A DNA stretch of 20,884 nt from an uncultured Deferribacteres bacterium (GCA_964014485.1 CAXHAT010000143.1:1-20884), one strand, 5' to 3'. Positions 170 to 20,237 are shown, numbered from the stretch's first letter. The notes: generated from the sequence alone by a model not told the origin. Made by a program: numbers and translations.

Positions 170-1675
170 CTATTTCCAGCCGCGCTGCCGCCAGGCTGAC
201 GTTCGCTCTGTTGCCGGCGATTGCGTCGGGGCGGTTTTTCTCTGGTTTTGAAGCGTACCCAAAACTGCGGCCAGCGCCAGGGCGTGTTCTTCCGATTCGC
301 CCAAATCTCCGTTAAGCCCTGCGTTTTTTGCAAAATACTCATCTTCAACAAAATGAGTATCAAACATGCCCGAGCGAAATTTTTCATGATTCACCGCCCA
401 GCGGCAAAAAGGGATCGTCGTATGCACCCCCCCGACGCGGTATTCTTCCAGCGCCCGCACCATCCTTTCAATAGCCAGTTCGCGGTTTTCAGCACAAACC
501 GCCAATTTCGCGATCATAGGATCATAAAAAACAGAAATTTCATCCCCGGCGGTAACTCCGGAATCGTCCCGCACTCCCGGGCCGTCCGGCTTTTCAAGAT
601 AGACGACGTCGCCAATCGACGGCAAAAAATTATTGGCCGGGTCTTCCGCGTAAATGCGAGCTTCGACGGCGTGTCCGTTTAAACGAACGTCTTTCTGCTC
701 GACAGGTAAAGACAGCCCTCGCGCAACGTCGATTTGCCAGCGCACCAGGTCAAATCCCGTCACCATTTCCGTCACCGGATGTTCGACTTGCAGCCGGGTG
801 TTCATTTCCAGGAAATAAAAGTCGCGGTTTTTGTCGACCAAAAATTCGATCGTTCCAGCATTTACATAGCCGCAAGCCTTGGCGGCCAACACCGCGGCGG
901 CGCCCATTTTTTCTCTCATCGCTTCATCCAAGAGCGAGGACGGCGCTTCTTCAATCACTTTCTGATGTCGCCGCTGAATCGAACATTCCCGTTCCCCAAG
1001 ATGAATCACGTTGCCGCGAGAATCCGCAAAAACCTGAAATTCAATATGTCTCGGTTGCTCAAGGTATTTTTCGATGTAGACGCGACCATCCCCGAAAGCC
1101 GAATTAGCCTCGGAAGAGGCGTTGCGAAAACTCGCTTCAATCGCAGTGACGTCTTTAACGACTCGCATACCTTTTCCGCCCCCGCCGGCAGCGGCTTTTA
1201 ATAAAACAGGGAATCCGGTTTTCCGCGCAACTTCACGCGCTTCTTCAGCGGATTTTAGCGGTTCCGCCGTGCCTGGAACAATAGGCACGCCCGCCGCTTC
1301 CATGGCCTGTCTTGCAGCGGTTTTATCGCCCATCGTCCGCATCGATTCGGCGCTAGGCCCGATAAAAATGAGGCCCGTCGCAACGGTTTTTTCAGCAAAT
1401 TGCGGATTTTCGGAAAGGAATCCATACCCCGGATGAATGGCGTCAGCGCCGGACTCAATCGCAACTTTCAGAATTTTGTCCTGGTTCAAATAACTCTCGG
1501 AAACTTGCGACGCTCCAATATGATAAGCTTCGTCCGCTTGGCGAACATGCAGCGCAGATTGATCAGCATCAGAATAAACGGCGACGGTCGGAATCCCCAT
1601 TTCACGACAAGTTCGCATGATGCGAACCGCAATTTCCCCGCGATTGGCGACGAGAATCTTCGTAATCTTTTTCAT
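170..1675 (-). CDS. accC: Biotin carboxylase subunit of an acetyl/propionyl-CoA-type carboxylase
   Basis: 501 aa with KILVANRGEIA, HPGYGFLSEN, GGGGKGMR, ERECSIQRRHQK, EMNTRLQVEHPVTE and YDPMIAKL motifs. No biotinyl domain is fused. Confidence 0.95.
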   Translation of the reverse strand: MKKITKILVANRGEIAVRIMRTCREMGIPTVAVYSDADQSALHVRQADEAYHIGASQVSESYLNQDKILKVAIESGADAIHPGYGFLSENPQFAEKTVATGLIFIGPSAESMRTMGDKTAARQAMEAAGVPIVPGTAEPLKSAEEAREVARKTGFPVLLKAAAGGGGKGMRVVKDVTAIEASFRNASSEANSAFGDGRVYIEKYLEQPRHIEFQVFADSRGNVIHLGERECSIQRRHQKVIEEAPSSLLDEAMREKMGAAAVLAAKACGYVNAGTIEFLVDKNRDFYFLEMNTRLQVEHPVTEMVTGFDLVRWQIDVARGLSLPVEQKDVRLNGHAVEARIYAEDPANNFLPSIGDVVYLEKPDGPGVRDDSGVTAGDEISVFYDPMIAKLAVCAENRELAIERMVRALEEYRVGGVHTTIPFCRWAVNHEKFRSGMFDTHFVEDEYFAKNAGLNGDLGESEEHALALAAVLGTLQNQRKTAPTQSPATERTSAWRQRGWK

Positions 1676-1890: not shown

Positions 1891-4800
1891 ATGTGCCGTT
1901 TTTCTGACTTGTTCGGAAAGCTGCGCCTCCTCCCGATTTTCACCACGATCGCTTGCTTTCTCACTTCACCGCTTTTTGCTCAAACTTCGCCGGAATGCGA
2001 CTCGATTCAGGTCGAGGCGTTTAGCCTGCGCGATAATGACGCCGGGCTCATCGTTTTGGCCACCGACCGTCCCGGCAGGGATACGCTCGTCGATTCGCTC
2101 GCGATAACCGTTCCCCAGGGGAAGGCCGGACTTTATGAAATTTTCAGTTTAATCGGCTACAACAGCGGCAACGAGCAGCTCAACGAAACTTTTTACATGA
2201 TTGTCGTGCATCCGGACGGGCGGAGAAGCTACCCTATTTTCGCCAATATTCCCAAAGAAGAAGTCGGGAAAGTCGACGCTAACGGCGATTCGATCAGCTA
2301 CAACGTTATTCTGGACGACGGCCTGGAGGATAACCACACCAATGAACGCCAAGCCGGGATTTTCTATTTCGAAGAAGGCCGCAATATTGTTGAGCTGCAT
2401 CATTACAACGACATTGCGCTTGAATTTCCCCAATTCGTTAATTGCCCGGACAGCGCCACCACAGGACGAAACTGCATCATGGGCGATCCCGATATTATCC
2501 AGGGCCCGCAGAGCGTTCGTGTGAGCATTTTTACAATTGTAGAATTATGCGCCGATCTCGAATTAACGCAGTCGGCGTTTACCGGTGCGACCGCAATCGT
2601 GAACGGCGATACGGCTTTGGCGGAGTTTGAAGAGCGTCAATTTGAGTACCTCCTGACCGTCAAAAACAACGGCCCGGCCACGGCTCAAGATTTTACGTTG
2701 ACCGACACCATTCCTTCCTTACTCACGCCGGATTTTGGCCTGCGCCCCCCGGACGCCGAAGTTGATGACGGGCAAAATCGCATTGTCACCTGGAATTACA
2801 CCGGAGCCGATTCCTTACCTGTCGGGGCTGAAGATTCCATACGTTTCAATGTTACCGTTCCCATTGTCGCCGAACCGCTGCCTTTTCCATTGTTCAGCGC
2901 CGCAAGAACCGAGATTGCGCGCGACCCCGTCCCCGAAAACGATTATGATTCAACGACGGTTTTCGTTGTCGATTCATCGCTGGCCTTTTTCCCGAATTTC
3001 GATCTTGGGATAGACTATACCGCCGACCAAGACACGGTTTTTTCCGGCGAAAGCTATTCCTACACGCTCACGGTGACGAACTTTGGGCCTGGAGACGCGG
3101 GCGCGTTTACGGTCACCGACACACTGCCTGCTCAAGTCACTCTTATCGATCCACCGCCGGATTTTGGCGGTCAGGCGACCGTGACTTTCATCAATAATAT
3201 TCTTGTCTGGCAATTCAACAGCTTGCCGCGCGACAGCGCCGTCTCCGTTTCATTCGGCGTCACGGCGGCGGAAGTGCAGACCCCGACAAATCTACCAAGT
3301 ACTGCCGTCATTGAGGCCCAGGGAGACCTTAGCCCAGGAAATAATCAGGCCAGCGTCGACGTTGTCGCAATTCCAAAAGCTGCGCAGGTAAAGTTTGACC
3401 TGGCGCACACTCACACAGCGGGTCGCGACTCTGTTTTGTCCGGCGAGAAATATTTCTACACGCTTGAGATTGACAATAACGGCCCCGCCGCCGCTTATGA
3501 TTTCACTTTGCGCGACATTTTGCCCAACGTGATTACGGTCGCTGGGGCCCTGCCTGATTTTGGCGGCAAAGCCCAAGTTTCACAAAACAACAATGTTATC
3601 ACCTGGCAAATTGATTCGCTCTTGGCCGGACAGTCTTTGGTTGGTTCTTTTGAAGTTCTGGCAGGCGGCGTTCTCGATACAGTCAGCTTGCTCAATTCGT
3701 CGTTCATTCAAGCTGAAAACGATACGACGCCGAATAACAATTTCGCTCAAACAACCATTGTCGTCAGTCCGCTCCCGACAGCACTGTTGAACTACGATTT
3801 GGCGCACACGCAGACAGTCAGCCGTGATTCCGTTATGTCCGGCGAGACGTTTTTTTACACTTTGACCATTGAAAACAACGGGCTGGCGAACGCATTCGAT
3901 TTTATGCTTCGCGACACGCTGCCAGCGGAAGTGAATGTTAGCGGAGCTCTGCCAGATTTCGGCGGCAAGGCGCAGGCTTCGCAAAACGGTGGGGTTGTCT
4001 CCTGGCAAATTGATTCACTTGCGGCGGGACAAACTTTGGTCGATTCTTTTCAAGTCCAGGTCGTCGGCCAATTTGCAGATTTCACGGACTTGATCAACTC
4101 ATCGATTGTTGAAGCCGTAAACGACACCACGCTGGGCAATAATTTCGATTTAACGACCGTCGTTGTCTTGCCGAACGTTCCGGCGTCAGCGAATTACGAT
4201 CTGGCGCATTCGCAGACGGCCAGCCGCGATTCCGTCATGTCCGGTGAAGCATATTTTTATACGCTCCAAATCGACAACAACGGCTTGTCGACGGCATTCG
4301 ATTTTGCTTTGCGCGACACGCTGCCTGCAGAAGTGAATGTTAGCGGAGCTCTGCCAGATTTCGGCGGCAAGGCGCAGGCTTCCCAAAACGGCGGGGTCGT
4401 GTCTTGGCAAATTGATTCTCTCACCGCAGGGCAAACTTTGGTCGATTCTTTTCAAGTCCAGGTCGTCGGGCAATTTGCAGATTTCACGGACTTGATCAAC
4501 TCATCGATTGTTGAAGCCGCGAACGACACCACGCCGGGCAATAATTTTGACCAAACAACCGTTGTTGTTTTACCGGACGTTCCGGCATCAGCGAATTACG
4601 ATCTGGCACACACACAGACAGCCAGCCGTGACTCCATCATGTCCGGTGAAGCATATTTTTATACGCTCCAAATCGACAACAACGGGCCGCTAACGGCATT
4701 CGATTTTGCTTTGCGCGACACGCTGCCTGCACAAGTGAATGTTAGCGGAGCCCTGCCAGATTTCGGCGGCAAAGCACAGCCTTCGCAAAACGGCGGGGTT

Positions 4801-6867
4801 GTTTCCTGGCAAATTGATTCTCTCGCGGCGGGACAAACGTTGGTCGATTCTTTTCAAGTTCAGGTCGTCGGTCAATTTGCGGACTTCACAAATTTGATCA
4901 ACTCATCGATTGTCGAGGCAGCAAACGACACCACTCCGGACAATAATTTTGACCAAACGACCGTCGTTGTTTTGCCGGACGTTCCGGCGTCAGCAAATTA
5001 CGATCTGGCGCATTTTCAAACCGCCAGCAGTGATTCCGTTTTGTCCGGCGAATCGTTTTTCTACACCTTGACCATTGAAAACAACGGCCCAACGACCGCG
5101 TTTGATTTTGCACTTAGTGACACACTGCCGAATGAAGTCGCCGTCGCTGGGAGCTTGCCCGATTTCAACAGCAAAGCGCAGGCTTCGCAAAACGGCGCCG
5201 TCATCTCCTGGCAAATTGATTCTCTCGCGGCGGGACAAACGTTGATCGATTCTTTTCAAGTCCAGGTCGTCGGCCAATTTGCAGATTTCACCGATTTGAT
5301 GAACTCATCAATTGTTGAAGCCCCAAACGACACCACTCCGGACAATAATTTTGACCAAACGACCGTCGTTGTTTTGCCGGATGCTCCGGCGTCAGCGAAT
5401 TACGATCTGGCGCATTTCCAATCCGCGAGCAAGGATTCCGTGATCTCCGGCGAGACGTTTTTGTACACCCTGACCATCGAAAACAACGGCTTGGCAACGG
5501 CCCTTGATTTCACAATGCGAGATACGCTTCCGGAAAATGTCACGCCCGTCGGCGCGCCTCCGGATTTTGGCGGCAAGGCGCAAGTTACGGCGATGAACAA
5601 CATCCTGCACTGGCAATTCGATTCTTTAGCGGCGGGACAGACGCTCACGGATTCATTTCTGGCTCACGCCGTTGGTGAGTTCCAGAATTTTACCGACTTG
5701 ATCAATTCGTCAATCGTTGAAGCTGCAAACGACACGACTCCGGACAATAATTTTGCACAAACCACGGTCGTCGTAACGCCGGACGCGTCAACATCCGCGA
5801 ATTACGATTTGGCGCATTCACAAACCGCCAGCCGCGATTCCGTTTTGTCTGGGGAAACGATTTTTTACACGCTTCAAATCGACAACAATGGCCTGATGAC
5901 CGCGTTTGATTTTACCCTTCGCGATACGTTGCCGGACGAAGTCAGCGTCAGCGGCGCGCTGCCTGATTTCAACGGACAAGCGCAAGTTTCTCAATTTGGC
6001 AGCGTGATTTCGTGGCGGTTTGATTCCTTGCGCGTCGGGAAAAGCGCCGCCGACGTGTTGGAAGTTCGCGTCGGCGAGATTTTGGTTGAGAAAGACCTGA
6101 TTAATTTCTCAAGAGTCGAAGCGGCGAACGACACGACGCCGGACAATAACGCAGCGCAAACTTCGGTGCGAGCGCTTTTAAAAGATGTCGGAAACCCTCG
6201 GAATTTCACTCTGACTCACGCCCAACTCGCTGACGTCGACACAGTGAGAAGCGGGGAATCATTCAGCTACACGCTGATCGTCGAAAACCTCGGCCCGGAT
6301 TCTTCGCTGGCATTTACGATGACGGACACGTTGCCTGATCTTGTAGAAACTTCCGGAACGATACCGTTGCTGGATTCACGCGACGGCAAAACGTTGCGAT
6401 GGCGTTTTGAGCCTTTGGCGCCGGACGAAATGCTCAGCCTGACATTTCCTGTCGTCGCCGGAGATTTTCCAGACGACAGCGTGACGCCATTGCTCAACAA
6501 AAGCGCAGTGAGCGACGGCGATACGACGCTGTTTGCGGAAACCCTCGTTTGGGGCGTAAGGCAAATCACGCCGACAGGATTGCCGATTGACTGCTTCCTG
6601 GATCGCAATATTTTTATCCCGGAGGCCGAGCAAGTTTTGGGCATTAATTTCGATCTCGATTCGCCGACGCGGGTGCGCATCGACGTGCACGATATGGCCG
6701 GCGTTCACATCGTCCAGTTAGCGGATGAAATCTTCCAGCCGGGCAGAAATCGTTACGAGTGGAACGGCGTTGACAAGCACGGCATACCGGCGGGAAGCGG
6801 TCTGTACATTATCACTTTTCGCGCAGACACTTTCTCGGATTGGAAAAAAGTGATGGTGGTGCGATGA
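1891..6867 (+). CDS. Giant secreted DUF11-repeat surface protein with C-terminal FlgD-Ig/T9SS-like sorting domain
   Basis: 1658 aa. Signal peptide ending PLFA-Q, a unique ~190-aa N-domain, ten DL..YTL.I.N.G...A..F.L.DTLP..W.IDSL..N.S.V....D..P.NN repeats, and a C-terminus DRNIFIP..I.VHDMAG..WNG.D..G....SGLYII..KKVMVVR. Confidence 0.9.
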   Translation: MCRFSDLFGKLRLLPIFTTIACFLTSPLFAQTSPECDSIQVEAFSLRDNDAGLIVLATDRPGRDTLVDSLAITVPQGKAGLYEIFSLIGYNSGNEQLNETFYMIVVHPDGRRSYPIFANIPKEEVGKVDANGDSISYNVILDDGLEDNHTNERQAGIFYFEEGRNIVELHHYNDIALEFPQFVNCPDSATTGRNCIMGDPDIIQGPQSVRVSIFTIVELCADLELTQSAFTGATAIVNGDTALAEFEERQFEYLLTVKNNGPATAQDFTLTDTIPSLLTPDFGLRPPDAEVDDGQNRIVTWNYTGADSLPVGAEDSIRFNVTVPIVAEPLPFPLFSAARTEIARDPVPENDYDSTTVFVVDSSLAFFPNFDLGIDYTADQDTVFSGESYSYTLTVTNFGPGDAGAFTVTDTLPAQVTLIDPPPDFGGQATVTFINNILVWQFNSLPRDSAVSVSFGVTAAEVQTPTNLPSTAVIEAQGDLSPGNNQASVDVVAIPKAAQVKFDLAHTHTAGRDSVLSGEKYFYTLEIDNNGPAAAYDFTLRDILPNVITVAGALPDFGGKAQVSQNNNVITWQIDSLLAGQSLVGSFEVLAGGVLDTVSLLNSSFIQAENDTTPNNNFAQTTIVVSPLPTALLNYDLAHTQTVSRDSVMSGETFFYTLTIENNGLANAFDFMLRDTLPAEVNVSGALPDFGGKAQASQNGGVVSWQIDSLAAGQTLVDSFQVQVVGQFADFTDLINSSIVEAVNDTTLGNNFDLTTVVVLPNVPASANYDLAHSQTASRDSVMSGEAYFYTLQIDNNGLSTAFDFALRDTLPAEVNVSGALPDFGGKAQASQNGGVVSWQIDSLTAGQTLVDSFQVQVVGQFADFTDLINSSIVEAANDTTPGNNFDQTTVVVLPDVPASANYDLAHTQTASRDSIMSGEAYFYTLQIDNNGPLTAFDFALRDTLPAQVNVSGALPDFGGKAQPSQNGGVVSWQIDSLAAGQTLVDSFQVQVVGQFADFTNLINSSIVEAANDTTPDNNFDQTTVVVLPDVPASANYDLAHFQTASSDSVLSGESFFYTLTIENNGPTTAFDFALSDTLPNEVAVAGSLPDFNSKAQASQNGAVISWQIDSLAAGQTLIDSFQVQVVGQFADFTDLMNSSIVEAPNDTTPDNNFDQTTVVVLPDAPASANYDLAHFQSASKDSVISGETFLYTLTIENNGLATALDFTMRDTLPENVTPVGAPPDFGGKAQVTAMNNILHWQFDSLAAGQTLTDSFLAHAVGEFQNFTDLINSSIVEAANDTTPDNNFAQTTVVVTPDASTSANYDLAHSQTASRDSVLSGETIFYTLQIDNNGLMTAFDFTLRDTLPDEVSVSGALPDFNGQAQVSQFGSVISWRFDSLRVGKSAADVLEVRVGEILVEKDLINFSRVEAANDTTPDNNAAQTSVRALLKDVGNPRNFTLTHAQLADVDTVRSGESFSYTLIVENLGPDSSLAFTMTDTLPDLVETSGTIPLLDSRDGKTLRWRFEPLAPDEMLSLTFPVVAGDFPDDSVTPLLNKSAVSDGDTTLFAETLVWGVRQITPTGLPIDCFLDRNIFIPEAEQVLGINFDLDSPTRVRIDVHDMAGVHIVQLADEIFQPGRNRYEWNGVDKHGIPAGSGLYIITFRADTFSDWKKVMVVR
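3793..6204 (+). repeat. Intragenic tandem repeat, six 402-bp (134-aa) units
   Basis: YDLAH codons start at 3793, 4195, 4597, 4999, 5401 and 5803, and the next domain starts at 6205. The central units are nearly identical at DNA level. Confidence 0.95.
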
Positions 6868-9800
6868 CAAACAAAAGAGCCTCAAAGCATCCGGTTTGTC
6901 ATTCTGAAAGAATCTTCGTTCGCGACCGGCAAAAATGGCGCTCAAGGTTCAAGAGTTGGAGCAAAAAAGATGCTTCCAGCATGACAATTTCGGGCTTTTG
7001 GGGGAGCGTCGGGCAGCGCAACGATAGGTGTCAATTAGTCAATTCCTTCGTTCCACTGATGGCCGTCGTCATCGTTTTTATATTTTTTTCAATTCCCGCC
7101 AACGCCCAGTTTCGCGCGGGAGGGGCGTTTTTAAAACTTATCCCCGGCGCACGTCAACAGGCCTTGGCCGGAAGCTTGACCGGCTCGCTGGACAACGTTT
7201 CCGCAATTTACGCCAACCCCGGCGCCGTCGGATTTTTGCGTGAGTGGGGCTGGAACGTCGCCTACACAAGTTGGGTGCCGGGAATCTACCACACCTCGGC
7301 TTTTTTCGGGAAAAATATTGCGACCCCCTGGAGTCGGCAAACGCGGTTCGCGTTAAGCGCATCTTACCTCGGAGTGAAAGAATTCGACAGTTCCGGCGGA
7401 AGAGCTCCGGCGGTCAGCGGCGGCGATTTTTGGGTGGCGGCGAGCATCGGCCAGCCTTTCCGAAAAGCGCTGAGCGGGTTTGCTCTTGGGGCGAATGTCA
7501 AATATTTGCGCAGCCGCCTCGACAATTTTGATGCGGGCGCCTTCGTACTGGATTTGGGCGGGATGTATCGAACGAAGCAAATTCGATTGATGCAAGGGGG
7601 GCTCCTGGAGCACGGCGTTTTTTCCCTGGGCGCCGGCGTCACCCACATTGGCTCCTCGTTAAATTTCATGAATTTTAACACGCCTCTGCCGTTTACTTAT
7701 CGCTTTGGTGCAGCTTTTCACGCCGGTACGCATGATGGGCTGCAGGCGACGGTTTCGATTGACTATCGCAGCACGCGGGACGAGGAAGATTTTACGTCGC
7801 TGGGTTTTGAATTCTCATGGGCAAGCTTGCTGACATTTCGTTTTGGCTACAATCTCGAAGACCTCAACCTTTTCAATCGCGCCGGGGCGGGGATGAGCAT
7901 TGGCTTGACGGATTTGCGGCTCAGTCCAAAAAACCTCATTCCGGGCCGCAACAAAGCCGTCCGGTTTGATTTCGCCGCCCTCAACAATTCCGATTTTTTT
8001 GGCGAACCGTACCACGGCGCTATCAACCATTACGCCATTCGTCCAGAGCGTTTCGATTTCGCCTCGCCGCCAAACGACGCGCTGATCAATTCCGAAAATA
8101 TTGTGCTGAATTGGTCGCACTCGCGCGATCCGGATTTGTTGGATGACGTCACCTACTGGCTGCTCGTCGATCCAAGCAGAGATCGAATTTCAGAGGCGCT
8201 TGAAAAATTTGAGAACGGCGCTCCATTCTGGAATTTGCTCGCCGATGAATCTTTTTTTCGCAATGATACGCTCAAACAAACGGAAATGAGGCTTGACCTC
8301 GACGCGACGGTTTGCGAAGAATATTTCTGGACGGTGGTCGCAGTTGACAAAGACCGCCATTTTCGCGTCATCGGCGGCGAGAAAAAGCGCATCGCCAATT
8401 TCCGTGTAGCGTTGCCTGATTTACAAGTGACCGACATCCGCGTTTTGCCCGACACGACTTTGCAAGGTCCGCGACAGGGTGCTGAAATTATGCTGTTTAT
8501 CACCAACGTCGGGGAGAGCGCCGCTGAAAATTTTTCTGTCGAATTTGCCGATTCGAGCGATTCATCTCCAACCCTGACAGAGTTTGAAACTCTGTCAGGG
8601 TTAACTCTATTGCCCGGAGCACTAGACTCCGTCGCCGTTTCCTGGCGCGCGGAAGGTTTTGCGCAACACTATGTAACGGCAATGCTTGACCCCGCCAACA
8701 CGGTTCCGGAATGCAACGATAGCGACAACCGCCTGATTTTTGACCTGCCGAAACCGCCGCCGATGGGTCATGATCTTGCAATCGTCAAAACCGCGAATCG
8801 CGATACCGTTTTTGCTGAAGAAACTTATGCTTATACGTTGACCGTGTGGAACAACGGTCCGATCACCGCCAAAAATTTCACCGTCGAAGACGTCCTGCCA
8901 GATCATTTGACGCTCAAAAACGCCTCGCGCCCGACGGAGTCTGAAATCGCGGAAGAGCGCAAAATGATTTGGCGTTTCGATTCTCTGGCAGTCGGCGATT
9001 CGCTAACGATTCAATACGAAGTAGAAACGGAACCCTTGTTGTTCTCGCCGGGAGCGCCGCTGGATTTGGAAGGCGTCACCTTTGAATTCAACAAGGATAT
9101 TTTGACCGCAAGCGCCAAAATCAAGTTGCAAGAATTTGGCAGAGCGATGAAGCAGGTTTTGGAGCTGAATCCTGGGCTATCATTTGAAATCGGCGGGCAC
9201 ACGGATGATATTGGGACGCACGCTTATAACGACCGGCTTTCTGACGCTCGCGCCAAAAGCGTGCAAGCCTACTTGGCCTCGCTTGACCCGATTCATGAGC
9301 GTCTCACAGCAAGAGGTTATGGCGAACGTCAGCCGATTGCGCCTAACCACACGCCCGAATGCCGCGAGAAAAACCGCCGCGTTGAAATCAAAATTCCTGC
9401 GGATACAAGAATCCCGCAACGGACTTTTGTAAACAAGAGTTTTGTCAGCACCGGCAATGATCCGGACACGACGAATAATTTTGCCGAGGCGACGGTGCAA
9501 TTCAAGCATGTCAAAACGCCGCCGCCGGGAGTTATCGTTGTAAATTTTGGCTTTGACAGCTCGAACCTGGGCGATGAAGCGAAACAAGCGCTCGACAATG
9601 TTTTGCCGGCTATTGTGACTGAATTAAGAAAAGACGCCGAGCTCTACGTCGAGATTTCAGGACACACGGACAGCCGCGGCTCCGATCAATACAATCAGCC
9701 GCTTTCTGAACGCCGCGCCAAGTCCGTACTTGAATACTTTTACGCCAATTGTATTCGCCGGGAGCGCATGAAGGCGCTAGGCTATGGAGAGAGTCGCCCC

Positions 9801-9869
9801 ATCGCCGACAACGTAACGGAAGAAGGCATGCTCAAGAACCGCCGCGTAGAGTTCCGTTTTCGAAAATAG
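6864..9869 (+). CDS. PorV/PorQ-family beta-barrel fused to FN3-like, CARDB, DUF11 and two OmpA C-terminal domains
   Basis: The ATG at 6864 overlaps the upstream TGA (ATGA); alternative starts are 6981 and 7059. Signal ends PANA-Q. PorV-like motifs AFLKLIPGARQQALAG, AIYANPGA, GANVKYL, DLGGMY, PLPFTYRFG, FRFGY. OmpA motifs GHTD..G...YN..LS..RA.SV and GYGE..PI..N.T..NRRVE occur twice. Confidence 0.88.
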   Translation: MTNKRASKHPVCHSERIFVRDRQKWRSRFKSWSKKDASSMTISGFWGSVGQRNDRCQLVNSFVPLMAVVIVFIFFSIPANAQFRAGGAFLKLIPGARQQALAGSLTGSLDNVSAIYANPGAVGFLREWGWNVAYTSWVPGIYHTSAFFGKNIATPWSRQTRFALSASYLGVKEFDSSGGRAPAVSGGDFWVAASIGQPFRKALSGFALGANVKYLRSRLDNFDAGAFVLDLGGMYRTKQIRLMQGGLLEHGVFSLGAGVTHIGSSLNFMNFNTPLPFTYRFGAAFHAGTHDGLQATVSIDYRSTRDEEDFTSLGFEFSWASLLTFRFGYNLEDLNLFNRAGAGMSIGLTDLRLSPKNLIPGRNKAVRFDFAALNNSDFFGEPYHGAINHYAIRPERFDFASPPNDALINSENIVLNWSHSRDPDLLDDVTYWLLVDPSRDRISEALEKFENGAPFWNLLADESFFRNDTLKQTEMRLDLDATVCEEYFWTVVAVDKDRHFRVIGGEKKRIANFRVALPDLQVTDIRVLPDTTLQGPRQGAEIMLFITNVGESAAENFSVEFADSSDSSPTLTEFETLSGLTLLPGALDSVAVSWRAEGFAQHYVTAMLDPANTVPECNDSDNRLIFDLPKPPPMGHDLAIVKTANRDTVFAEETYAYTLTVWNNGPITAKNFTVEDVLPDHLTLKNASRPTESEIAEERKMIWRFDSLAVGDSLTIQYEVETEPLLFSPGAPLDLEGVTFEFNKDILTASAKIKLQEFGRAMKQVLELNPGLSFEIGGHTDDIGTHAYNDRLSDARAKSVQAYLASLDPIHERLTARGYGERQPIAPNHTPECREKNRRVEIKIPADTRIPQRTFVNKSFVSTGNDPDTTNNFAEATVQFKHVKTPPPGVIVVNFGFDSSNLGDEAKQALDNVLPAIVTELRKDAELYVEISGHTDSRGSDQYNQPLSERRAKSVLEYFYANCIRRERMKALGYGESRPIADNVTEEGMLKNRRVEFRFRK
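6896..6987. repeat. REP/RPE-like palindromic element inside the 5' end of the PorV-fusion ORF
   Basis: Arms TTGTCATTCTGAAAGAATCTT (6896-6916) and AAGATGCTTCCAGCATGACAA (6967-6987) are complementary at 18 of 21 positions. GTCAT...ATGAC termini are typical of this repeat class. Confidence 0.75.
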
Positions 9870-9969: not shown

Positions 9970-10359
9970 ATGCGTCTGCGTTACATCAAATATGGAATTT
10001 TATTGTCTGCGGCATACTTCTATTCTTCTGGTTGCGGGACTGATTCAGAAGGCGCTCCCGCAGATCCCGGGCTTGTAAAAATCGGCCAGGAGGCCTACAA
10101 AACCGCGGCTTGCATTACCTGCCACACCATTGACGGTCGCCCGTTTACAGCACCGACGTTCAAGGGGCTTTACGGCAAGGAAGAAGAGCTTGCCGACGGA
10201 TCAAAAATTATCGTCGATGACGCCTACCTTCGCGAGTCTATTCTCGACGGCGCCGCCAAAGTCGTCAAAGGCTACAACCCGCTACACCCGCCGTTTAAAT
10301 CAATGCTCACACCGGAGCAAGTTGACGGTTTAATCGCTTACATCAAGAGTTTGAAATGA
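9970..10359 (+). CDS. Monoheme cytochrome c lipoprotein (resembles the cytochrome c domain of caa3 oxidase subunit II)
   Basis: RBS GGAG, lipobox-like SSGC, CITCH heme motif at 10111-10125, and PTFKGLYG..DDAYLRESI..LIAYIKSL. Confidence 0.9.
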   Translation: MRLRYIKYGILLSAAYFYSSGCGTDSEGAPADPGLVKIGQEAYKTAACITCHTIDGRPFTAPTFKGLYGKEEELADGSKIIVDDAYLRESILDGAAKVVKGYNPLHPPFKSMLTPEQVDGLIAYIKSLK

Positions 10360-11219
10360 AGAACGTGCTGGTCGCCGGAGCAAGCGGCAATTTAGGCAAG
10401 TATGTCGTCACAGCTTTGAAAGAACGCGGTTTTTGCGTTACCGCCTTGACGCGAAAGAAGAATCGCTTACAAGAAATCGAACCTTATTATGAGCGTGCGT
10501 TCGTCGCAGACGCTACGGACGCTAATGCATTGCGCGGTGCATGCACAGAAATCGACGTCGCTGTTTCATGCTTGGGCGGCAGCGTTAATCCTTCGCTCAG
10601 CGGCGGTCGTCAATCGTTTCAGGACGTCGATTTTCACGCGAACATGAATCTTCTCAAGGAAGCCGCTTCGCAATCAGTTAAAAAGTTCATTTATGTCGGC
10701 GTTTACGGGCACGAAGTCTATGGTGAGCTTAACTATGTTAAAGCGCATGAGTTGTTTGCAAAGGAACTAACGGCGTCAAACATACCGTCCACAATAGTCC
10801 GTCCAACCGGCTTTTTTAGCAGTTTTGGCGAATTGTTCAAGATGGCGAAGATGGGACGCGCAATTGTTTTTGGCGACGGAGAGGTCAGAACAAATCCTAT
10901 TCACGAGGACGATCTGGCGCACGTTTGCGTTGACGCCATCAATCAAGACGTTCGAGAAATCAACGTCGGCGGGCCGGAAATCTTTACGCGCCGACAAGCC
11001 GTTGAACTTGCATTTAAAGCCTTAGACAAGACCCCGCGCATCTCTCATTTGCCGATTGGCCTTTTGCAGACTTTTTCAAAAATTGCAAAACCGTTCAATA
11101 AACGTATTTCTGAAATTCTGGCTTTCTTTGCGAAAATTTCTGAGGTCGATGTTGTAGCGCCGAAACAGGGAGAACGCACGTTACGCGCTTATTTCCAGCA
11201 GCTCGCCGAACAAGCATAA
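10356..11219 (+). CDS. Atypical SDR / NAD(P)H-binding protein (NmrA-like)
   Basis: VLVAGASGNLG Rossmann motif, TIVRPTGFF, NPIHEDDLA, VGGPE. ATGA overlap with the cytochrome c gene. Confidence 0.9.
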   Translation: MKNVLVAGASGNLGKYVVTALKERGFCVTALTRKKNRLQEIEPYYERAFVADATDANALRGACTEIDVAVSCLGGSVNPSLSGGRQSFQDVDFHANMNLLKEAASQSVKKFIYVGVYGHEVYGELNYVKAHELFAKELTASNIPSTIVRPTGFFSSFGELFKMAKMGRAIVFGDGEVRTNPIHEDDLAHVCVDAINQDVREINVGGPEIFTRRQAVELAFKALDKTPRISHLPIGLLQTFSKIAKPFNKRISEILAFFAKISEVDVVAPKQGERTLRAYFQQLAEQA

Positions 11220-11232
11220 CGACGGAGAGATC

Positions 11233-11565
11233 ATGCTCATTTATGAAGTAAATATCGCGGTTGATGCGGACGTTTTTGACGAATATCTGCTGTGGATGGG
11301 TTCGCATATCCAGGAAATGCTCAAAATCGAAGGCTTTGAGCAGGCGGCGATGTTTCAGGCAGAGGACGATGATAAAAGCGGCAAGCGCGTCAAATTGAGC
11401 GTGCATTACGGCGTTAAGGACGACAAAAGCCTACAAAGATATTTTAAGCAGGACGCTGCACGAATGCGCGCGGACGGGGTCGGGCGTTTCGGAAACAAAT
11501 TTCAAGCGTCCCGCAGGATTTTGAAACAAAAGGGCGTGTTCAGAAATGAGCTTTCAAAAAGTTAA
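11233..11565 (+). CDS. DUF4286-family protein
   Basis: RBS GGAG. Pattern IYEVNI..YLLWM..HI.EML...GF..Y...L..YF...A.RMR.DG..RFG..F.A.RRIL. Confidence 0.8.
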   Translation: MLIYEVNIAVDADVFDEYLLWMGSHIQEMLKIEGFEQAAMFQAEDDDKSGKRVKLSVHYGVKDDKSLQRYFKQDAARMRADGVGRFGNKFQASRRILKQKGVFRNELSKS

Positions 11566-12766
11566 GTTTGAAAATGCGCAGGGCGAGCTGCTCGCCGCGC
11601 GCATAGATTTTCCGCCGGATAATCAGCCGGAAGCTTATGCGCTTTTTGCTCACTGCTTCACTTGTACAAAAAATTTAAGAGCGGTTGGGCACATCAGCAG
11701 CGCATTAACGCAAGCGGGATGCGCCGTGCTGCGTTTCGATTTTACTGGCCTGGGCGAGAGTGAAGGCGATTTTGCCGACGCCAATTTTTCGTCAAACGTC
11801 GACGATCTCGTTGTGGCCGCCAATTTTCTGGCGCAAAACTACAAAGCGCCGAAAATCCTGGTCGGGCATTCCCTTGGCGGCGCTGCGGTTTTACAGGCGG
11901 CGGCGAAAATTTCGTCATCCGTTGCCGTGGCGACCATCGGCGCTCCATACGACCCGCAACATGTGACGCAGCTTTTAGAAAGCAGTTTGGAGGAAATTGC
12001 CGCCAAGGGCGAAGCGGTCGTCAATCTTGCCGGGCGTTCCTTTAAAATCAAAAAACAATTTCTGGACGACCTTGAAATGACAAGCGTTTTTGAGCGGATT
12101 CGAAAGCTCGACCGGGCGCTCCTGGTTTGCCACTCGCCGATTGACGAAACCGTCGGTGTGGAAAACGCGGCACAAATTTTCAAAGCGGCCAAGCATCCTA
12201 AAAGTTATCTCTCCCTTGACCGCGCTGACCATTTACTGTCCGATTCGAGCGACTCATTCTACGTCGGGGCTATGATTGCGGCATGGGCCGCCAAGTATTT
12301 GGACGCTCCGCCAGCGCAGGATTCTTTGGAGCCGCAAGTTCCCAAGGGCGTTTTTGTGCGCACTGGAACTGAACATTGGCGCACGGAAATCCGCGCGAAT
12401 CGGCACGCGCTCATTGCGGACGAACCGATTGCAGCAGGCGGCGCAGACCTGGGCCCGACGCCCTACGACTTGCTGGTCGCCGGACTTGGCGCTTGCACCT
12501 CAATGACTTTGCGGATGTACGCCGAGCATAAAAAATGGCCTTTACAGGACGTCGAAGTTGAATTGCACCATCGAAAAATTCATGCAAAGGATTGCAGCGA
12601 CTGTGAAACCAAGACGGGAAAAATCGACAAAATCGAACGCAAAATTACCTTGCACGGCCCGCTGGACGACCAGCAGCGCCAGAGACTTTTGCAAATAGCG
12701 GATCGCTGCCCCGTGCATCGAACGTTGCATTCGGAAATAAAAGTTGAAACGACCTTGAAATCGTGA
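11546..12766 (+). CDS. Bifunctional alpha/beta hydrolase-OsmC family protein
   Basis: [14 protein letters not shown], nucleophile GHSLGG, AKHPKS, ADHLL. C-terminal OsmC domain with [19 protein letters not shown] and RCPVHRTL. Confidence 0.93.
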
Positions 12767-12805
12767 TTGAAGATAGGATCGTTTCTTGTTGCGTAAAGAT
12801 CTTTG

Positions 12806-12834
12806 TTTGACGGGATATACATGATTAACAAGAT
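12806..12834. repeat. Left arm of a degenerate 9-bp-periodic (ACAGGATTT-like) inverted repeat
   Basis: Units ACGGGATAT/ACATGATTA/ACAAGATT. 19 of 29 positions match the reverse complement of 14866-14894. Confidence 0.55.
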
Positions 12835-12888
12835 TGATTTGAATTAAGACTTGATTGTATCATCTGATTAATGCGGCATAAAAATCTG

Positions 12889-14863
12889 TTAGCAATCAAT
12901 GATGACCAATGGAATATGGGAGCTTAAAAATGAAAATTACCCGACTGCCTTATCTGCAGATTTCTTCTGTGCCGCCTCTTCTGATATTTGTGAGTATTTC
13001 ACTTTTCAATCTTCAATTGCTTGCTGCCCAAACCGGAACGCTTAAACTCACTGTTCTTGATAGCACAACTAATCAGATAGTACCTGCTCGGGTTGAAATT
13101 CAAGGATCTGATGGGGAGTATTACGTCGCCGAGGACGCTTTGCTCGTGGGGGGAGATTGTGACATGAGCGATCACGGTGCTGGGCTTCATGACCTTGAAA
13201 CCACACTAGCCAGCTTTCACCGCGAAGTCGGGAATCCATACACTCGATCAACTCAGTTTTATAGCAACGGTAAATCGTCAATCTACCTACCATCGGGTAC
13301 CGCGGCTATAAGAGTGTATAAGGGCCCTGAGTATGAACTACATGTCGAAAAGGTGGATATTCAGGCCGGCAAAACCACTCAACACGAAATAAGAATATCC
13401 CGATGGGTCAACATGCCTGAGAAAGGATGGTACAGCGCAGATGATCACTTGCATATTCCAAGGCCATCTAAAGAACTTAATCCCTATATCATGAAAATGA
13501 TGCAGGCAGAAGACATCCATGTTGGCAACCTTCTCCAAATGGGTAAAGTTGTAAACTTCAATATTGCCCCACAATACTCTCATGGTGAAGAAAGCTATTA
13601 TCAGGAAGGTGGATATATTCTGGCAGCAGGTCAGGAAAATCCGAGGACACATTTTTTAGGTCACACAATCACGCTCGGCGCCAAGACAGCTCTCCATTCT
13701 CCAGAGGAATATCTGATTTATCGATTGCTTTGGCAAGAAGCATCTAAGCAAGGGGCAATTAACGGCTACGCTCATTATGGAAGTATGTTCAGTGGTCAAT
13801 CCGGTCTGCCGTTGGTATTACACCACAATTTAATGCACTTCATAGAGGTCTTACAATTCAATCGAAGTGACTATGAAGCGTGGTATGAAGTTCTCAATTT
13901 AGGATTTCGCGTAACTCCGACAGCTGGTACAGATTATCCTTGTGGCAGTAACCTGCCAGGGCATGAACGTTTTTACACGAAAGTTGATGGTGATTTCACC
14001 TATAATAATTGGCTGGATGGTGTCCGACGTGGGAAAACTTTTGTCACAACTGGACCTATTTTGGAATTCCGGGTCAATGGCCATGATATTGGCGAAGAAG
14101 TTATGTTAGAAGGCCCTGATTCGCTACGTATAGAAGGGAAGGTCATATTTGACAACCAATTGGATGATTTGCAGAGAATCGAACTCATTGAAAATGGTCA
14201 GGTGGTCGGAAGTTTTCCTCGCACGAATATGGAAGGCAACATTAGCTTTAGTATTAATCATCCCATGAAGGAGACTTCTTGGTTGACCCTTCGAGGATAT
14301 GGAAACAAACTAAAACAAAGTATGTCCGTGAGGCCATGGCACTTTAGAAGTTTTAAGCCGATGAGTACAGTCCACTCAGCCCCTATATACGTGACAATCA
14401 AAAATGCTTCACCGTTTACCTCACATTCCCGCACAAAGGTGCTAGCGCGAAAATGGTTGGCACATTTAGAAGACTTGGAAACAATGCTGGAAGAAGACAA
14501 TATCGAATATTTGGCTCAGAAACTTTTAGACCCCGAATTTGATGCGGTACCAAAAGACATCCTTATCAAAAATCGATTGGCTCTTTTCGATGAAATCCGA
14601 GATGCCAAGGATTTCTTTATTCAACTTTCGGAGTAGTGCATTATATTCTTGAATGTGGTCAATTATCTTCAGAGTTCTTCGGTCGATGCAAGGGGGGGGT
14701 TTGAGACGACTTTTTGTCGCAGTTTCCGAAGGCTAACATTTGGGTCAACTTGACGCCGAAAAGCTGGGCGCGCGTTTCAGATTTTGAAGCATATACGCCG
14801 TTAGGATTAGGAGTACGTCAAAATTATGCGTTTCGAGTGCTTCGGCATAAGTTACACTTACCG
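12889..14863 (+). mobile_element. Putative solo integron gene cassette (~1.97 kb)
   Basis: The 5' core G|TTAGCA (12888-12894) complements R'' GGCTAAC at 6 of 7 positions. One gene, then an attC at 14731-14869. The segment is visibly AT-richer than its flanks. Confidence 0.72.
12930..14636 (+). CDS. Secreted CehA/McbA-family (PHP-like) metallohydrolase
   Basis: Start chosen at ATG 12930 after GGGAG (the ORF is open from 12909). Signal peptide, VPARV and KGPEY N-domain, GWYSADDHLH, GHT, GYAH, TAGTDY, GKTFVTTGP and HSAPIYV. Confidence 0.82.
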   Translation: MKITRLPYLQISSVPPLLIFVSISLFNLQLLAAQTGTLKLTVLDSTTNQIVPARVEIQGSDGEYYVAEDALLVGGDCDMSDHGAGLHDLETTLASFHREVGNPYTRSTQFYSNGKSSIYLPSGTAAIRVYKGPEYELHVEKVDIQAGKTTQHEIRISRWVNMPEKGWYSADDHLHIPRPSKELNPYIMKMMQAEDIHVGNLLQMGKVVNFNIAPQYSHGEESYYQEGGYILAAGQENPRTHFLGHTITLGAKTALHSPEEYLIYRLLWQEASKQGAINGYAHYGSMFSGQSGLPLVLHHNLMHFIEVLQFNRSDYEAWYEVLNLGFRVTPTAGTDYPCGSNLPGHERFYTKVDGDFTYNNWLDGVRRGKTFVTTGPILEFRVNGHDIGEEVMLEGPDSLRIEGKVIFDNQLDDLQRIELIENGQVVGSFPRTNMEGNISFSINHPMKETSWLTLRGYGNKLKQSMSVRPWHFRSFKPMSTVHSAPIYVTIKNASPFTSHSRTKVLARKWLAHLEDLETMLEEDNIEYLAQKLLDPEFDAVPKDILIKNRLALFDEIRDAKDFFIQLSE

Positions 14864-14869
14864 TTATCC
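14731..14869 (+). mobile_element. Integron attC site (139 bp)
   Basis: R'' GGCTAAC, 5-nt spacer ATTTG, L'' GGT[C]AACTTG[A]CGCCGAA, imperfect stem, L' TTCGGCATAAGTTACA, 6-nt spacer CTTACC, R' GTTATCC. The 5/6 spacers and the extra C and A bases are as in canonical attC sites. Confidence 0.8.
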
Positions 14870-14894
14870 GATCGATCCTGTAAATCTTGTCGAA
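14866..14894. repeat. Right arm of the 9-bp-periodic inverted repeat
   Basis: ATCCGATCG/ATCCTGTAA/ATCTTGTCGAA, the inverted counterpart of 12806-12834. Confidence 0.55.
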
Positions 14895-14953
14895 GAATGA
14901 ATTGTCCAAAATAATCGATATTTTATTTCAATCAGGGATAGGGAGCAGGAAGC

Positions 14954-15724
14954 ATGAAAACGATTGCTGTTACGCACACGGTTTCGCCTCATATTAATGA
15001 ATGCGAATTGACTTACATGGAGCGTGAAGAAATTGATTATCCCAACGCCTTAAAGCAGCACGGCGCTTACAGCGAAACTTTGCGGCGCTGCGGAGCGGAA
15101 GTTTTCAACCTGGAGGAAAACACCGACCATCCGGACAGCATTTTTGTGGAAGATAACGCCGTTGTCGTCGACGAAATAGCGGTCATCACCCACATGGGCG
15201 CCGAGTCGCGCCGGGCGGAAGTGGATACAATGGCTGACTATCTGGCGCAATACCGGGAGGTCGTCCGAATTGAAGCGCCGGCAACGATTGAGGGCGGCGA
15301 CGTGATGCGCGTTGGAAAAAAAGTCTTTGTCGGTTTAAGCACGCGTACAAATCAAGCAGGCGTTGACGCATTGCGTGATAAATTAGCGCCGTATGGCTAC
15401 ACTGTGACCGGTGTTGCGACGCCGGGATGTCTCCATTTAAAAACCGGCATTACCGTCCTCAATGACGAGACGCTGATCGGCAACACGGGCTGGGTCGACA
15501 TGTCGGCGTTTAAAGACTTTCGCGTTATCGCCGCCGCTCCGGACGAGCCGTGGGCCGGCAACGCGCTGCGGGTGAACGACAAGGTCATTATGCACGAAGG
15601 GCACGTTCGCGCCATCGAAGAAGCGGAAAAATTGGGAATTTCCGTTGAGCGAACCAACATCTCCGAATTCATGAAGGCCGAGGCGGGTTTGACGTGTATG
15701 AGCATAGTTTTTCAAAAAAAATAG
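14954..15724 (+). CDS. Dimethylarginine dimethylaminohydrolase (amidinotransferase superfamily)
   Basis: PDSIFVED, SRRAE, EGGDV, GLSTRTN, LHLKTG and the catalytic Cys in GLTCMS. A purine-rich RBS lies upstream. Confidence 0.92.
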   Translation: MKTIAVTHTVSPHINECELTYMEREEIDYPNALKQHGAYSETLRRCGAEVFNLEENTDHPDSIFVEDNAVVVDEIAVITHMGAESRRAEVDTMADYLAQYREVVRIEAPATIEGGDVMRVGKKVFVGLSTRTNQAGVDALRDKLAPYGYTVTGVATPGCLHLKTGITVLNDETLIGNTGWVDMSAFKDFRVIAAAPDEPWAGNALRVNDKVIMHEGHVRAIEEAEKLGISVERTNISEFMKAEAGLTCMSIVFQKK

Positions 15725-15729
15725 AACTT

Positions 15730-15757
15730 GTAGAGACGCGATGCATCGCGTCTCTAC
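15730..15757. repeat. GTAG-type REP-like perfect palindrome, copy 1
   Basis: GTAGAGACGCGATGCATCGCGTCTCTAC, a 28-bp perfect palindrome 5 bp after the stop codon. Confidence 0.9.
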
Positions 15758-15789
15758 CTGATGCATAGAAATTTATTGGAGCCTCATTT

Positions 15790-17094: not shown

Positions 17095-17101
17095 TTCGTG
17101 C

Positions 17102-17129
17102 GTAGAGACGCGATGCATCGCGTCTCTAC
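17102..17129. repeat. GTAG-type REP-like perfect palindrome, copy 2
   Basis: Identical 28-mer to 15730-15757, 7 bp after the stop codon. It extends to 30 bp (17101-17130). Confidence 0.9.
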
Positions 17130-17199
17130 GAGCTGAGGAGAATAGACAGAGAGCGCGATTTTGAAAAATTTTGCACTGCACGGAGGGAAAGATTGGCGG

Positions 17200-18519: not shown

Positions 18520-18546
18520 CGTCTTTTTGTGAGAGCGGGGATTGGA

Positions 18547-19470
18547 TTACACGTGAACGCGAACGGCATTGGGGATGATTTCGAAACGCGCGGGAAGTTT
18601 GCCGGGGGCCTCGCCGTCCATGTCGATCAAGACTTCTTCGTCAGACCGCGCAACCAGCTTTTTTCCTTTCAAATAAACGACTTTTGGGTGTTGGAAAAGC
18701 TTGCCGTTGTAGAGCTTGGGCAAATTACGCAGAACGTCCAGTTTTCCGACATTTCCAACCAGTGCAAATTCAAACAAACCGTCGTCCAACTTCGCTTCGG
18801 GCGCGACCCACATGCCGCCGCCAAAGTATTGCCCATTCGCCGCCAAAACCGCCAGATGCCTGCCGTCGACTTCCTCGCCGTCATCGATTTGAAAAACGAC
18901 CTTTGGGTTTTTGTGCGTAAAAAGCGTGACGACCAATCCGGAAATATAAGCGAGAAAGTTGCCGAGATAGCGCGGAAAGCCGTTAATATTCTTCGCGATT
19001 AAACCGCCGAATCCGAAGTCGGAAATATTGACGAAATAATTCTCGGTTTCTGAATTGTCAAACCGGCGGTACGACAGTTTTCCAACATCGATATTTTGCA
19101 GGCGCATCTTGATGATGCTTTCGGCCAAGTCTTCGGGCCGGTTCGGAACTTTCAGCGTGCGCGCCAAATCTTGCCCCGTTCCCGCTGCAACGACGGCAAG
19201 CGACGCAGTGCGCGCAAAAACGCCTTTTTCATTGCCAAATCCGTTGACGACTTCATTGACCGTCCCGTCGCCGCCGACGGCGATGACAATTTGAGTCCCC
19301 CTTTGAATCGTCTGGCGTGTCAAATCGGCGGCGTGCCCAGGTTTCTCGGAAAAAACTTCTGAAATTTCAATCCCGTTTTTTGCGAGGGTCGAACGATATT
19401 TGGGCCAGATTTTTCGCGCTTTTCCTTTACCGGCAAAAGGGTTTATAATTGCTGCGGCTTTGTTCGCCAT
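18547..19470 (-). CDS. Diacylglycerol kinase family lipid kinase (YegS/BmrU-like)
   Basis: IINPFAGKG, GGDGTVNEV, GTGQDLAR, NGQYFGGGM, DDGLF and DGE motifs. Confidence 0.94.
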   Translation of the reverse strand: MANKAAAIINPFAGKGKARKIWPKYRSTLAKNGIEISEVFSEKPGHAADLTRQTIQRGTQIVIAVGGDGTVNEVVNGFGNEKGVFARTASLAVVAAGTGQDLARTLKVPNRPEDLAESIIKMRLQNIDVGKLSYRRFDNSETENYFVNISDFGFGGLIAKNINGFPRYLGNFLAYISGLVVTLFTHKNPKVVFQIDDGEEVDGRHLAVLAANGQYFGGGMWVAPEAKLDDGLFEFALVGNVGKLDVLRNLPKLYNGKLFQHPKVVYLKGKKLVARSDEEVLIDMDGEAPGKLPARFEIIPNAVRVHV

Positions 19471-19506
19471 TGAGTTGACTCTTTTGTCTTTGAAATTTCA
19501 TACACG

Positions 19507-20212: not shown

Positions 20213-20237
20213 CTCTTCAAAATATTTATCTCAACTT

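What the first reader, a model, noticed from the sequence alone, without database searches (positions are those of the whole stretch)
1891..9869. Two-gene 'private' T9SS-like surface-display system: giant Ig-repeat cargo coupled to its own barrel-peptidoglycan-anchor fusion
Seen: the two ORFs overlap by ATGA. The first has a signal peptide, ten DUF11 repeats and a CTD beginning DRNIFIP. The second joins a PorV-like barrel to Ig-like spacers and two OmpA domains. Known: in Bacteroidota, PorV shuttles type A CTD cargo, type B CTD adhesins such as SprB rely on an adjacent PorP/SprF barrel, and PorE is a separate OmpA-domain protein linked to PorP. Inference: here a dedicated barrel and the cell-wall tether are one polypeptide serving one cognate adhesin, giving a compact, envelope-spanning anchoring module, probably outside Bacteroidota.
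Basis: partly seen in the sequence, partly recalled or inferred. Interest (0 to 1): 0.82.

Follow-up and report, generated by a model that had tools for sequence, protein, structure and literature searches.

The report
Surface protein with wall-tethered partner barrel
Most genomes of an uncultured bacterial phylum (KSB1) carry a tightly linked gene pair, a long surface protein ending in a type IX secretion tag and an outer-membrane barrel fused to cell-wall-binding domains, which probably fastens the surface protein to the cell wall through one partner protein instead of the two used in Bacteroidota.

Summary
ORF1 (1891-6867) has a signal peptide, a CBM-like tip, ten DUF11 repeats and a type-A/FlgD-like CTD. 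ORF2 (6864-9869) is a 14-strand PorV-family barrel (Z 31 to PorV) followed by Ig-like spacers and two OmpA domains with canonical motifs. The genome is KSB1/Zhuqueibacterota by relatives' names. It has SprA, PorU and PorV; GldK/L/M/N and PorE were not detected (no positive control). The pair is not a one-off: there is a second copy in this genome, 135 of 167 phylum genomes have both genes, 25 have neither, and 146 of 148 barrel loci with upstream DNA directly follow the same CTD subtype. Best reading (0.7): a cognate carrier/anchor working like PG1035-PorP-PorE, with barrel and wall tether in one chain. No paper on it was found in eight literature searches, but this scan noted similar pairs before on other DNA (Elusimicrobia, Eisenbacteria). 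Verdict: new variant of a known kind.

The parts
1891..6867 (+). Cargo gene, 1658 aa: signal peptide, CBM-like tip, 10 DUF11 repeats, C-terminal sorting domain
1891..1980 (+). Predicted type I signal peptide (ends LFA, mature Q)
   Evidence: read from the sequence; no predictor was run
2029..2547 (+). N-terminal jelly-roll domain resembling CBM6/CBM35; no Pfam family; in 32 ORFs of the 62 regions scanned
   Evidence: AF2 pLDDT 84.9; best Z 8.8, rmsd 2.3-2.9 A over 101-114 residues, a middling score; Foldseek no hit at E<=0.001
2554..6570 (+). Stalk of ten DUF11 (CLIPPER) Ig-like repeats; none of the ten has the lysine at the isopeptide-forming position
6580..6864 (+). Cognate-type CTD (consensus LDRNVFxP ... 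GxxVGSGVY ... WKKxIIVR), type A/FlgD-like
6864..9869 (+). Barrel-tether fusion gene (1001 aa from the ATGA overlap)
6891..7000 (.). REP-like inverted-repeat element inserted in frame in the leader of ORF2
   Evidence: the hairpin is imperfect here (z -0.98 for 6868-7060)
7107..8039 (+). PorV/PorQ-family 14-strand outer-membrane barrel with N-terminal plug
8040..8732 (+). Two beta-sandwich spacers: one without a Pfam hit, then CARDB
8772..9506 (+). DUF11 domain with OmpA domain 1 (about 9066-9407) inserted; motif GHTD...LS..RA
9525..9866 (+). OmpA C-terminal-like peptidoglycan-binding domain 2; motif GHTD...LS..RA

Best explanation
The pair is a cognate type IX-type cargo and carrier/anchor. 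Both proteins cross the inner membrane by Sec. ORF2's barrel inserts in the outer membrane and its Ig-like spacers carry two OmpA domains into the periplasm, where they bind peptidoglycan. ORF1 enters the SprA translocon by its CTD, is taken up by the outer loops of its own barrel rather than by the general PorV, keeps its CTD and stays bound. A glycan-binding-like tip on a variable-length DUF11 stalk is thus displayed at a fixed, wall-tethered point. Shown: domains, modelled topology, linkage, co-inheritance, CTD subtype, presence of SprA. Inferred: secretion through SprA, CTD-barrel binding, CTD retention, peptidoglycan binding, adhesion.
For: Barrel: PorV is the best structural match (Z 31.3 and 31.0; FadL 26.9) and the only significant PDB sequence match (E 8e-13); 62 of 62 aligned members hit PorV_fam. 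The 14 modelled strands put the C-terminal domains on the plug side, which is periplasmic in this fold (established knowledge). Tether: two OmpA-like domains in 58 of 63 proteins, one in 4, none in 1. Linkage: 146 of 148 distinct barrel loci with 500 nt or more upstream follow a CTD gene, median gap 92 nt; 51 of 54 loci fetched after the profile was built; an in-frame open ATGA/GTGA overlap in 65 of 148 pairs. Co-inheritance: of 167 phylum genomes, 135 have both, 3 barrel only, 4 CTD only, 25 neither (searches compared), including 95-100% complete genomes lacking both (G047, G072, G079, G102, G152, G154, G166). Specificity: among 239 CTD-bearing ORFs of this genome the subtype profile scores the two barrel-adjacent cargos at E about 1e-32 and the next at 5e-18. 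The 14 barrel-adjacent CTDs fit the common CTD type poorly (median 45 bits against 107 for 112 held-out others). SprA is over the cut-off in 112 of 113 genomes. Precedent: PG1035-PorP-PorE (PMC9143113) and static PorE-linked pairs (PMC12618676).
Against: No direct evidence of contact. Covariation was inconclusive: top z 6.6 against 5.8-6.5 in shuffled pairings; 13 of the top 25 pairs fall in outer loops against 2 and 2 for two control domains, but shuffles gave 2-10. The CTD scores below the curated type A cut-off and is FlgD-like; PorV-bound type A cargo is normally handed on and cleaved, and this genome has a PorU over the cut-off. No GldK/L/M/N was detected, although energy is needed to extract carrier-cargo complexes in F. 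johnsoniae (PMC10994853). A wall-fixed barrel may have trouble reaching SprA. In most relatives the second OmpA-like domain reads GHAC in place of GHTD. The tip domain was found in only about half of the cargos. Kin are not independent, and adjacent genes are lost together in incomplete assemblies.
Confidence: 0.7

Rival explanations
1. The barrel-OmpA fusion is mainly an outer-membrane-to-wall rivet (like OmpA or Pal) or a transient private shuttle. The cargo is a cap for it, or is passed to PorU for cleavage and lipid attachment or release, so there is no lasting cargo-wall link.
For: PorU is over the cut-off. The CTD is type-A-like. This genome has three more barrel-OmpA fusions (C1, C8, C185), none preceded by a CTD gene. 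PG1035 was proposed to be a protective cap for PorP (PMC9143113).
Against: A distinct CTD subtype is gained and lost with the barrel and the genes are tightly coupled, which fits a one-to-one complex. A stalk of up to about 20 repeats with a lectin-like tip is more than a cap needs.
Confidence: 0.16
2. The barrel is a FadL-like uptake channel or sensor and the cargo is its surface capture protein for a glycan or hydrophobic ligand.
For: FadL, TodX and TbuX match at Z 23-27. In this genome other PorV-like barrels lie in TonB-receptor operons. The tip is CBM-like.
Against: PorV scores higher by structure and is the only sequence match. There is no Toluene_X/FadL Pfam hit. No transporter gene flanks the pair in this window, and flanking ORFs vary among relatives.
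Confidence: 0.07
3. ORF1 is not exported across the outer membrane. Its terminal FlgD-like Ig domain binds ORF2's periplasmic domains and the pair forms a periplasmic scaffold.
For: FlgD_ig also occurs in OmpA-containing proteins of Spirochaetota-dominated clusters (leads only). The motor and ring genes were not detected.
Against: 237 of 239 such domains in the genome are at the extreme C-terminus, as expected of a sorting signal. SprA, PorU and a canonical PorV are present. A stalk of ten Ig repeats is longer than a periplasm needs (inference).
Confidence: 0.05

Closest known systems
PG1035-PorP-PorE complex of Porphyromonas gingivalis, and Fjoh_3952-Fjoh_3951-Fjoh_3950 of Flavobacterium johnsoniae (PMC9143113, PMC12618676)
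   Same: CTD cargo gene directly upstream of a cognate 14-strand barrel; wall tethering by an OmpA-like domain; static surface display
   Different: The barrel is PorV/PorQ-family, not PorP/SprF (TIGR03519 hits 8 of 62 members weakly). The CTD is type A/FlgD-like (TIGR04131 in 1 of 62). The tether is fused, with Ig-like spacers and two OmpA domains, not a separate TPR/propeller lipoprotein; no PorE over the cut-off. No GldKLMN detected.
PorZ-PorQ and PorU-PorV of the attachment complex (PMC10202324)
   Same: A PorV-family barrel holding a partner by an uncleaved type-A-like CTD
   Different: Not PorQ (56.9 bits, cut-off 220) or PorV (35.3 bits, cut-off 250) by equivalog models. The partner is a fibrillar DUF11 protein. 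The barrel carries a periplasmic wall anchor.
DUF11/CLIPPER fibrillar adhesins (PMC12617251)
   Same: Signal peptide, tip domain, tandem DUF11 stalk, C-terminal sorting or anchoring domain
   Different: The ten repeats here lack the isopeptide lysine; the anchor is supplied by a second protein.
BamG-BamH (PMC12578637)
   Same: FadL/PorV-like 14-strand barrel binding a surface protein by its outer loops (Z 24)
   Different: BamH is a lipoprotein without a CTD; no OmpA fusion

Membership tests
PorV/PorQ family (NF033709) | Score above the curated cut-off | tested here: met
   95.6 and 98.9 bits against 90
PorV/PorQ family (NF033709) | 14-strand FadL-like barrel with N-terminal plug | tested here: met
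   AF2 model; Z 31.3 to 6h3i_F, rmsd 4.0 over 292 residues
PorV equivalog (general shuttle) | NF033710 cut-off | tested here: not met
   35.3 bits against 250. A separate stand-alone barrel on C78 is the best PorV_fam match and hits Pfam PorV.
PorP/SprF carrier | TIGR03519 / PF11751 match | tested here: not met
   No hit for this barrel; other genes of the genome do hit
Type B CTD cargo | TIGR04131 / CHU_C match | tested here: not met
   Window CTD has no hit. TIGR04131 in 1 of 62 and CHU_C in 38 of 62 members, only at E>=5e-4.
Type A CTD cargo | TIGR04183 above the cut-off at the extreme C-terminus | tested here: inconclusive
   C-terminal; 20.5 bits against 23; 60 of 62 members hit at E<=0.1, best 2e-8; profile hits the PorU CTD region at E 3e-4
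PorE | Lipoprotein with TPR, beta-propeller, CRD and OmpA domains (NF052230) | tested here: not met
   Only the OmpA parts match, 130 bits against 600
OmpA C-like peptidoglycan-binding domain | Fold and the Asp/Arg mDAP-binding pair (motif recalled) | tested here: met
   Pfam OmpA twice; GHTD...R in both domains; Z 18 to TagL and OmpA domains. Binding itself was not assayed.
Canonical T9SS host | SprA translocon, PorV, PorU | tested here: met
Canonical T9SS host | GldL/GldM motor and GldK/GldN ring | tested here: inconclusive
   GldM 0 of 167, GldN 0 of 113, GldL 0 of 113 over the cut-off with one weak hit, GldK 0 of 74 at E<=1e-40. No genome known to carry them was available as a positive control.
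Cognate cargo-carrier pair | Physical CTD-barrel contact and retention of the CTD | not testable with these tools

The most novel reading that the evidence does not exclude
KSB1 runs a type IX-type export system with no GldKLMN motor or ring. Its SprA hands cargo to more than 30 paralogous PorV-like barrels that read a CTD 'address code', and in this phylum-wide pair the carrier is itself riveted to the wall, so capture by the tethered barrel, or a different energiser, replaces motor-driven extraction. This would be a simpler, possibly older form of type IX secretion.
Probability: 0.3. Interest if true: 0.85.

Novelty: new variant of a known kind. Interest (0 to 1): 0.62.

Why it matters
It extends cognate CTD-barrel pairing from PorP/SprF to the PorV branch and to a phylum where no paper found here mentions type IX secretion. 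It shows the barrel and the wall tether as one natural fusion, which independently supports the proposed cargo-PorP-PorE anchoring logic. About 150 natural CTD-barrel pairs give a ready set for asking how a CTD picks its carrier, a question left open in PMC12618676. SprA in 112 of 113 genomes with no detectable motor raises a testable question about what powers export. A two-gene wall-tethered display module could also be useful for engineering.

Tried and rejected
Inter-protein covariation (MI-APC; 98 pairs, 136 pairs with effective number 108): outer-loop positions were enriched among top pairs but the top score did not clear the shuffles, so it is not counted as evidence. Barrel and CTD identity matrices correlate (Mantel r 0.65), but shared ancestry explains this; among 8 genomes with two pairs the difference profiles correlated from -0.05 to 0.70; only the quick barrel tree finished and no CTD tree was built. 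A locus scan with the single barrel found nothing; a 10-row alignment found 63 loci. Foldseek on the whole 962-aa model was dominated by integrins with TM about 0.1, rejected as noise. The tip domain has no Pfam family and no Foldseek hit at E<=0.001. The idea that the ATGA overlap is an artefact of the repeat element was rejected: 65 of 148 pairs have an open in-frame overlap, and 6 of 7 long-spacer loci with ATGA keep the frame open. Not fetched: the 17 unlisted matches (some may be among the loci). The homologue search covered only 514-1638 aa, so it cannot show unfused forms. Kulkarni 2017 and 2019 (PMC5446621, PMC6755757) were not held, so their statements on PorP/PorE-like genes and on T9SS genes outside Bacteroidota could not be checked; supplements were not read.

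Full report
Observation. The window is contig C143 of an 8.4-Mb genome, 97% complete. ORF1 (1891-6867, 1658 aa) and ORF2 (ATG 6864 to 9869, 1001 aa) overlap by ATGA. ORF1 has ten DUF11 repeats and a terminal domain with weak FlgD_ig and TIGR04183 matches; ORF2 matches PorV_fam above its cut-off, then CARDB, DUF11 and two OmpA domains. The AF2 model of ORF2 (41 sequences, pLDDT 77.8, pTM 0.53) shows a plug, 14 barrel strands, beta-sandwich spacers and two OmpA folds. Its best structural match is PorV (Z 31.3; FadL 26.9), and PorV is the only significant PDB sequence hit of the barrel profile. An even strand count places the C-terminal domains on the plug side, the periplasm in this fold. The low pTM means the relative arrangement of the domains is not determined.

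The junction. A ~110-bp repeated inverted-repeat element (about 6891-7000; 151 hits of 80 bp or more in the genome) lies in frame between the ATGA and the signal peptide core. The paralogue on C129 has a different element at the same place (10 such hits). Across 148 pairs the median spacer is 92 nt; 72 have ATGA/GTGA at the stop and 65 of these are in frame and open; of 15 spacers over 150 nt, 7 start with ATGA and 6 of those stay open. The overlap is therefore ancestral, and insertions are tolerated in the leader.

Host. Source names of homologues and record titles of the 63 loci point to KSB1/Zhuqueibacterota; many titles carry other or no labels, so the assignment rests on those names plus the phylum grouping of the genome search. 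The genome has SprA and PorU over their cut-offs, 33 PorV_fam matches including a canonical stand-alone PorV, PorP-like barrels and 239 CTD-bearing ORFs, 237 with the domain at the C-terminus. SprA is over the cut-off in 112 of 113 genomes at least 90% complete. GldM (0 of 167), GldN (0 of 113), GldL (0 of 113 over the cut-off), GldK (0 of 74; 11 sub-threshold partial matches in this genome) and PorE were not detected. These negatives lack a positive control.

Conservation and linkage. The barrel has a close homologue (E<=1e-35) in 138 of 167 phylum genomes, mostly single-copy, in frames of about 850-1200 aa. Of 152 distinct barrel loci, 148 directly follow a CTD gene; of the 148 with 500 nt or more of upstream DNA, 146 do. 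In L066 the cognate gene is one gene further upstream, L174 is unpaired, and two loci have no upstream DNA. The first 60 regions were picked for having upstream room; the 54 fetched after the CTD profile was built gave 51 pairs, and the independent scan gave 59 of 59 with room. Two OmpA-like domains occur in 58 of 63 proteins, one in 4, none in 1; 39 of 41 database homologues carry PF00691 (limited to 514-1638 aa). The profile of barrel-adjacent CTDs hits 139 of 167 genomes at E<=1e-22. Comparing the two lists gives 135 with both, 3 barrel only, 4 CTD only, 25 with neither; the profile was trained on about 54 of these genomes. In the phylum of a record titled Calditrichia, 6 of 86 genomes have the barrel, and the six loci fetched all show the pair, with one OmpA-like domain. 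Atlas clusters suggest similar barrel-OmpA architectures in Zixibacteria, Goldiibacteriota and others (scores under 0.9, leads only).

Cargo. The tip (residues 47-219) folds confidently as a jelly roll resembling CBM6/35 (Z 8.8, middling) and occurs in 32 ORFs of the regions scanned. Stalk length varies from none to about 20 repeats. The CTD is a conserved subtype: FlgD_ig in 62 of 62, TIGR04183 in 60 of 62, type B TIGR04131 in 1 of 62. Within this genome the subtype profile singles out the two cognate cargos. More generally, 14 of 32 PorV-like barrels with an upstream ORF follow a CTD gene (background 235 of 6379 ORFs), and those CTDs fit the common type poorly, which suggests a genome-wide system of private pairs.

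Mechanism. Best reading (0.7): Sec export of both proteins; the cargo leaves SprA on the outer loops of its own barrel, keeps its CTD and is held at a point tethered to peptidoglycan by the fused OmpA domains. This mirrors PG1035-PorP-PorE (PMC9143113, passages) and the static PorE-linked pairs proposed for F. johnsoniae (PMC12618676, abstract, passages and section 10). It also fits the published hypothesis that cognate PorV-like barrels protect CTDs from cleavage (PMC10202324, passages). Contact, retention, wall binding and adhesion are inferred. The complex could not be folded, and covariation was inconclusive. Against the reading: PorU is present, the CTD is type-A-like, most relatives have GHAC in the second OmpA domain, three other barrel-OmpA fusions here have no upstream cargo, and extraction from SprA needs a motor in F. 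johnsoniae (PMC10994853, passages; PMC12635249, abstract and passages) that was not found here. Rivals: rivet or transient shuttle (0.16), FadL-like uptake (0.07), periplasmic scaffold (0.05).

Literature and novelty. Eight full-text searches listed no paper on a PorV-OmpA fusion or on this pair; 'KSB1' with 'type IX secretion' gave 0 papers. Term look-ups in two KSB1 genome papers (PMC11683472, PMC9012183) and the Caldithrix paper (PMC5317091) found no mention of T9SS; PMC7031533 and PMC8542988 had it only in references. That T9SS parts may exist in other FCB phyla is already in print (PMC11285876, PMC5837995, passages). DUF11 stalks are described in PMC12617251 (passages) and BamG in PMC12578637 (passages). 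Two Kulkarni papers were not held, and subscription journals are mostly outside the library. NCBI already labels these proteins 'PorV/PorQ family protein'. This scan noted similar cargo plus barrel-OmpA pairs in Elusimicrobia and Eisenbacteria, and a TonB-receptor triad in this genome; those notes are unchecked and are not counted as support. Verdict: a real, conserved, apparently undescribed variant of cognate type IX anchoring; interest 0.62.

Noticed in passing
G000 C110, C20, C37, C136, C32, C64, C1 (L158-L164): Seven triads of a TonB-dependent-receptor-like gene, a 690-1190 aa CTD protein mostly without Pfam hits, and a stand-alone PorV-like barrel; possibly a SusD substitute.
   Followed up: partly
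G000 C185:6004-8394, C8:5219-7465, C1:95382-98258 (L014, L010, L013): Three more barrel-OmpA fusions: PorP/SprF plus two OmpA, PorV-like plus one OmpA, and a distant paralogue with two OmpA and a weak CARDB; none has a CTD gene directly upstream.
   Followed up: partly
G000 C38:17810-36031, C10:12697-22406 (L008, L009): CTD proteins of 5300 and 2535 aa directly followed by PorV-like barrel-TPR fusions; on C10 a SpoIIE/HATPase/TPR signalling gene follows. Other barrels carry SH3 domains (C6, C168).
   Followed up: no
window 6891-7000; L007, L027, L031, L044, L085: Different REP-like inverted-repeat elements are inserted in frame into the signal-peptide leader of the barrel gene in several genomes; 6 of 7 long-spacer loci with an ATGA overlap keep the frame open.
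   Followed up: partly
phylum-wide: SprA in 112 of 113 genomes with no detectable GldK/L/M/N.
   Followed up: partly
G000 C16:24184-28160, C48:14220-19635 (L016, L017): Classic type B-like pairs (CHU_C cargo followed by a PorP/SprF barrel with a C-terminal extension) coexist with the PorV-type pairs.
   Followed up: no
L028, L076, L078: The cargo's tip domain and CTD lie in two or three consecutive ORFs (split genes or assembly frameshifts). L028 holds two divergently oriented copies of the pair.
   Followed up: no
L149 (G238): The barrel fusion has one OmpA-like domain and a C-terminal stretch that looks like LysM (recognised from memory, not scanned), suggesting an alternative wall anchor.
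   Followed up: no
window 12909-14636: 575-aa secreted-looking protein with no Pfam hit, in a lower-GC stretch (42-45% against about 52%).
   Followed up: no
window 170-1675 and 9970-20882: Flanking genes are ordinary: biotin carboxylase, cytochrome c, NAD(P)-binding protein, DUF4286, OsmC-hydrolase, DDAH-like, M20 peptidase, periplasmic binding protein, YegS kinase, CxxCxxCC, SDR.
   Followed up: yes
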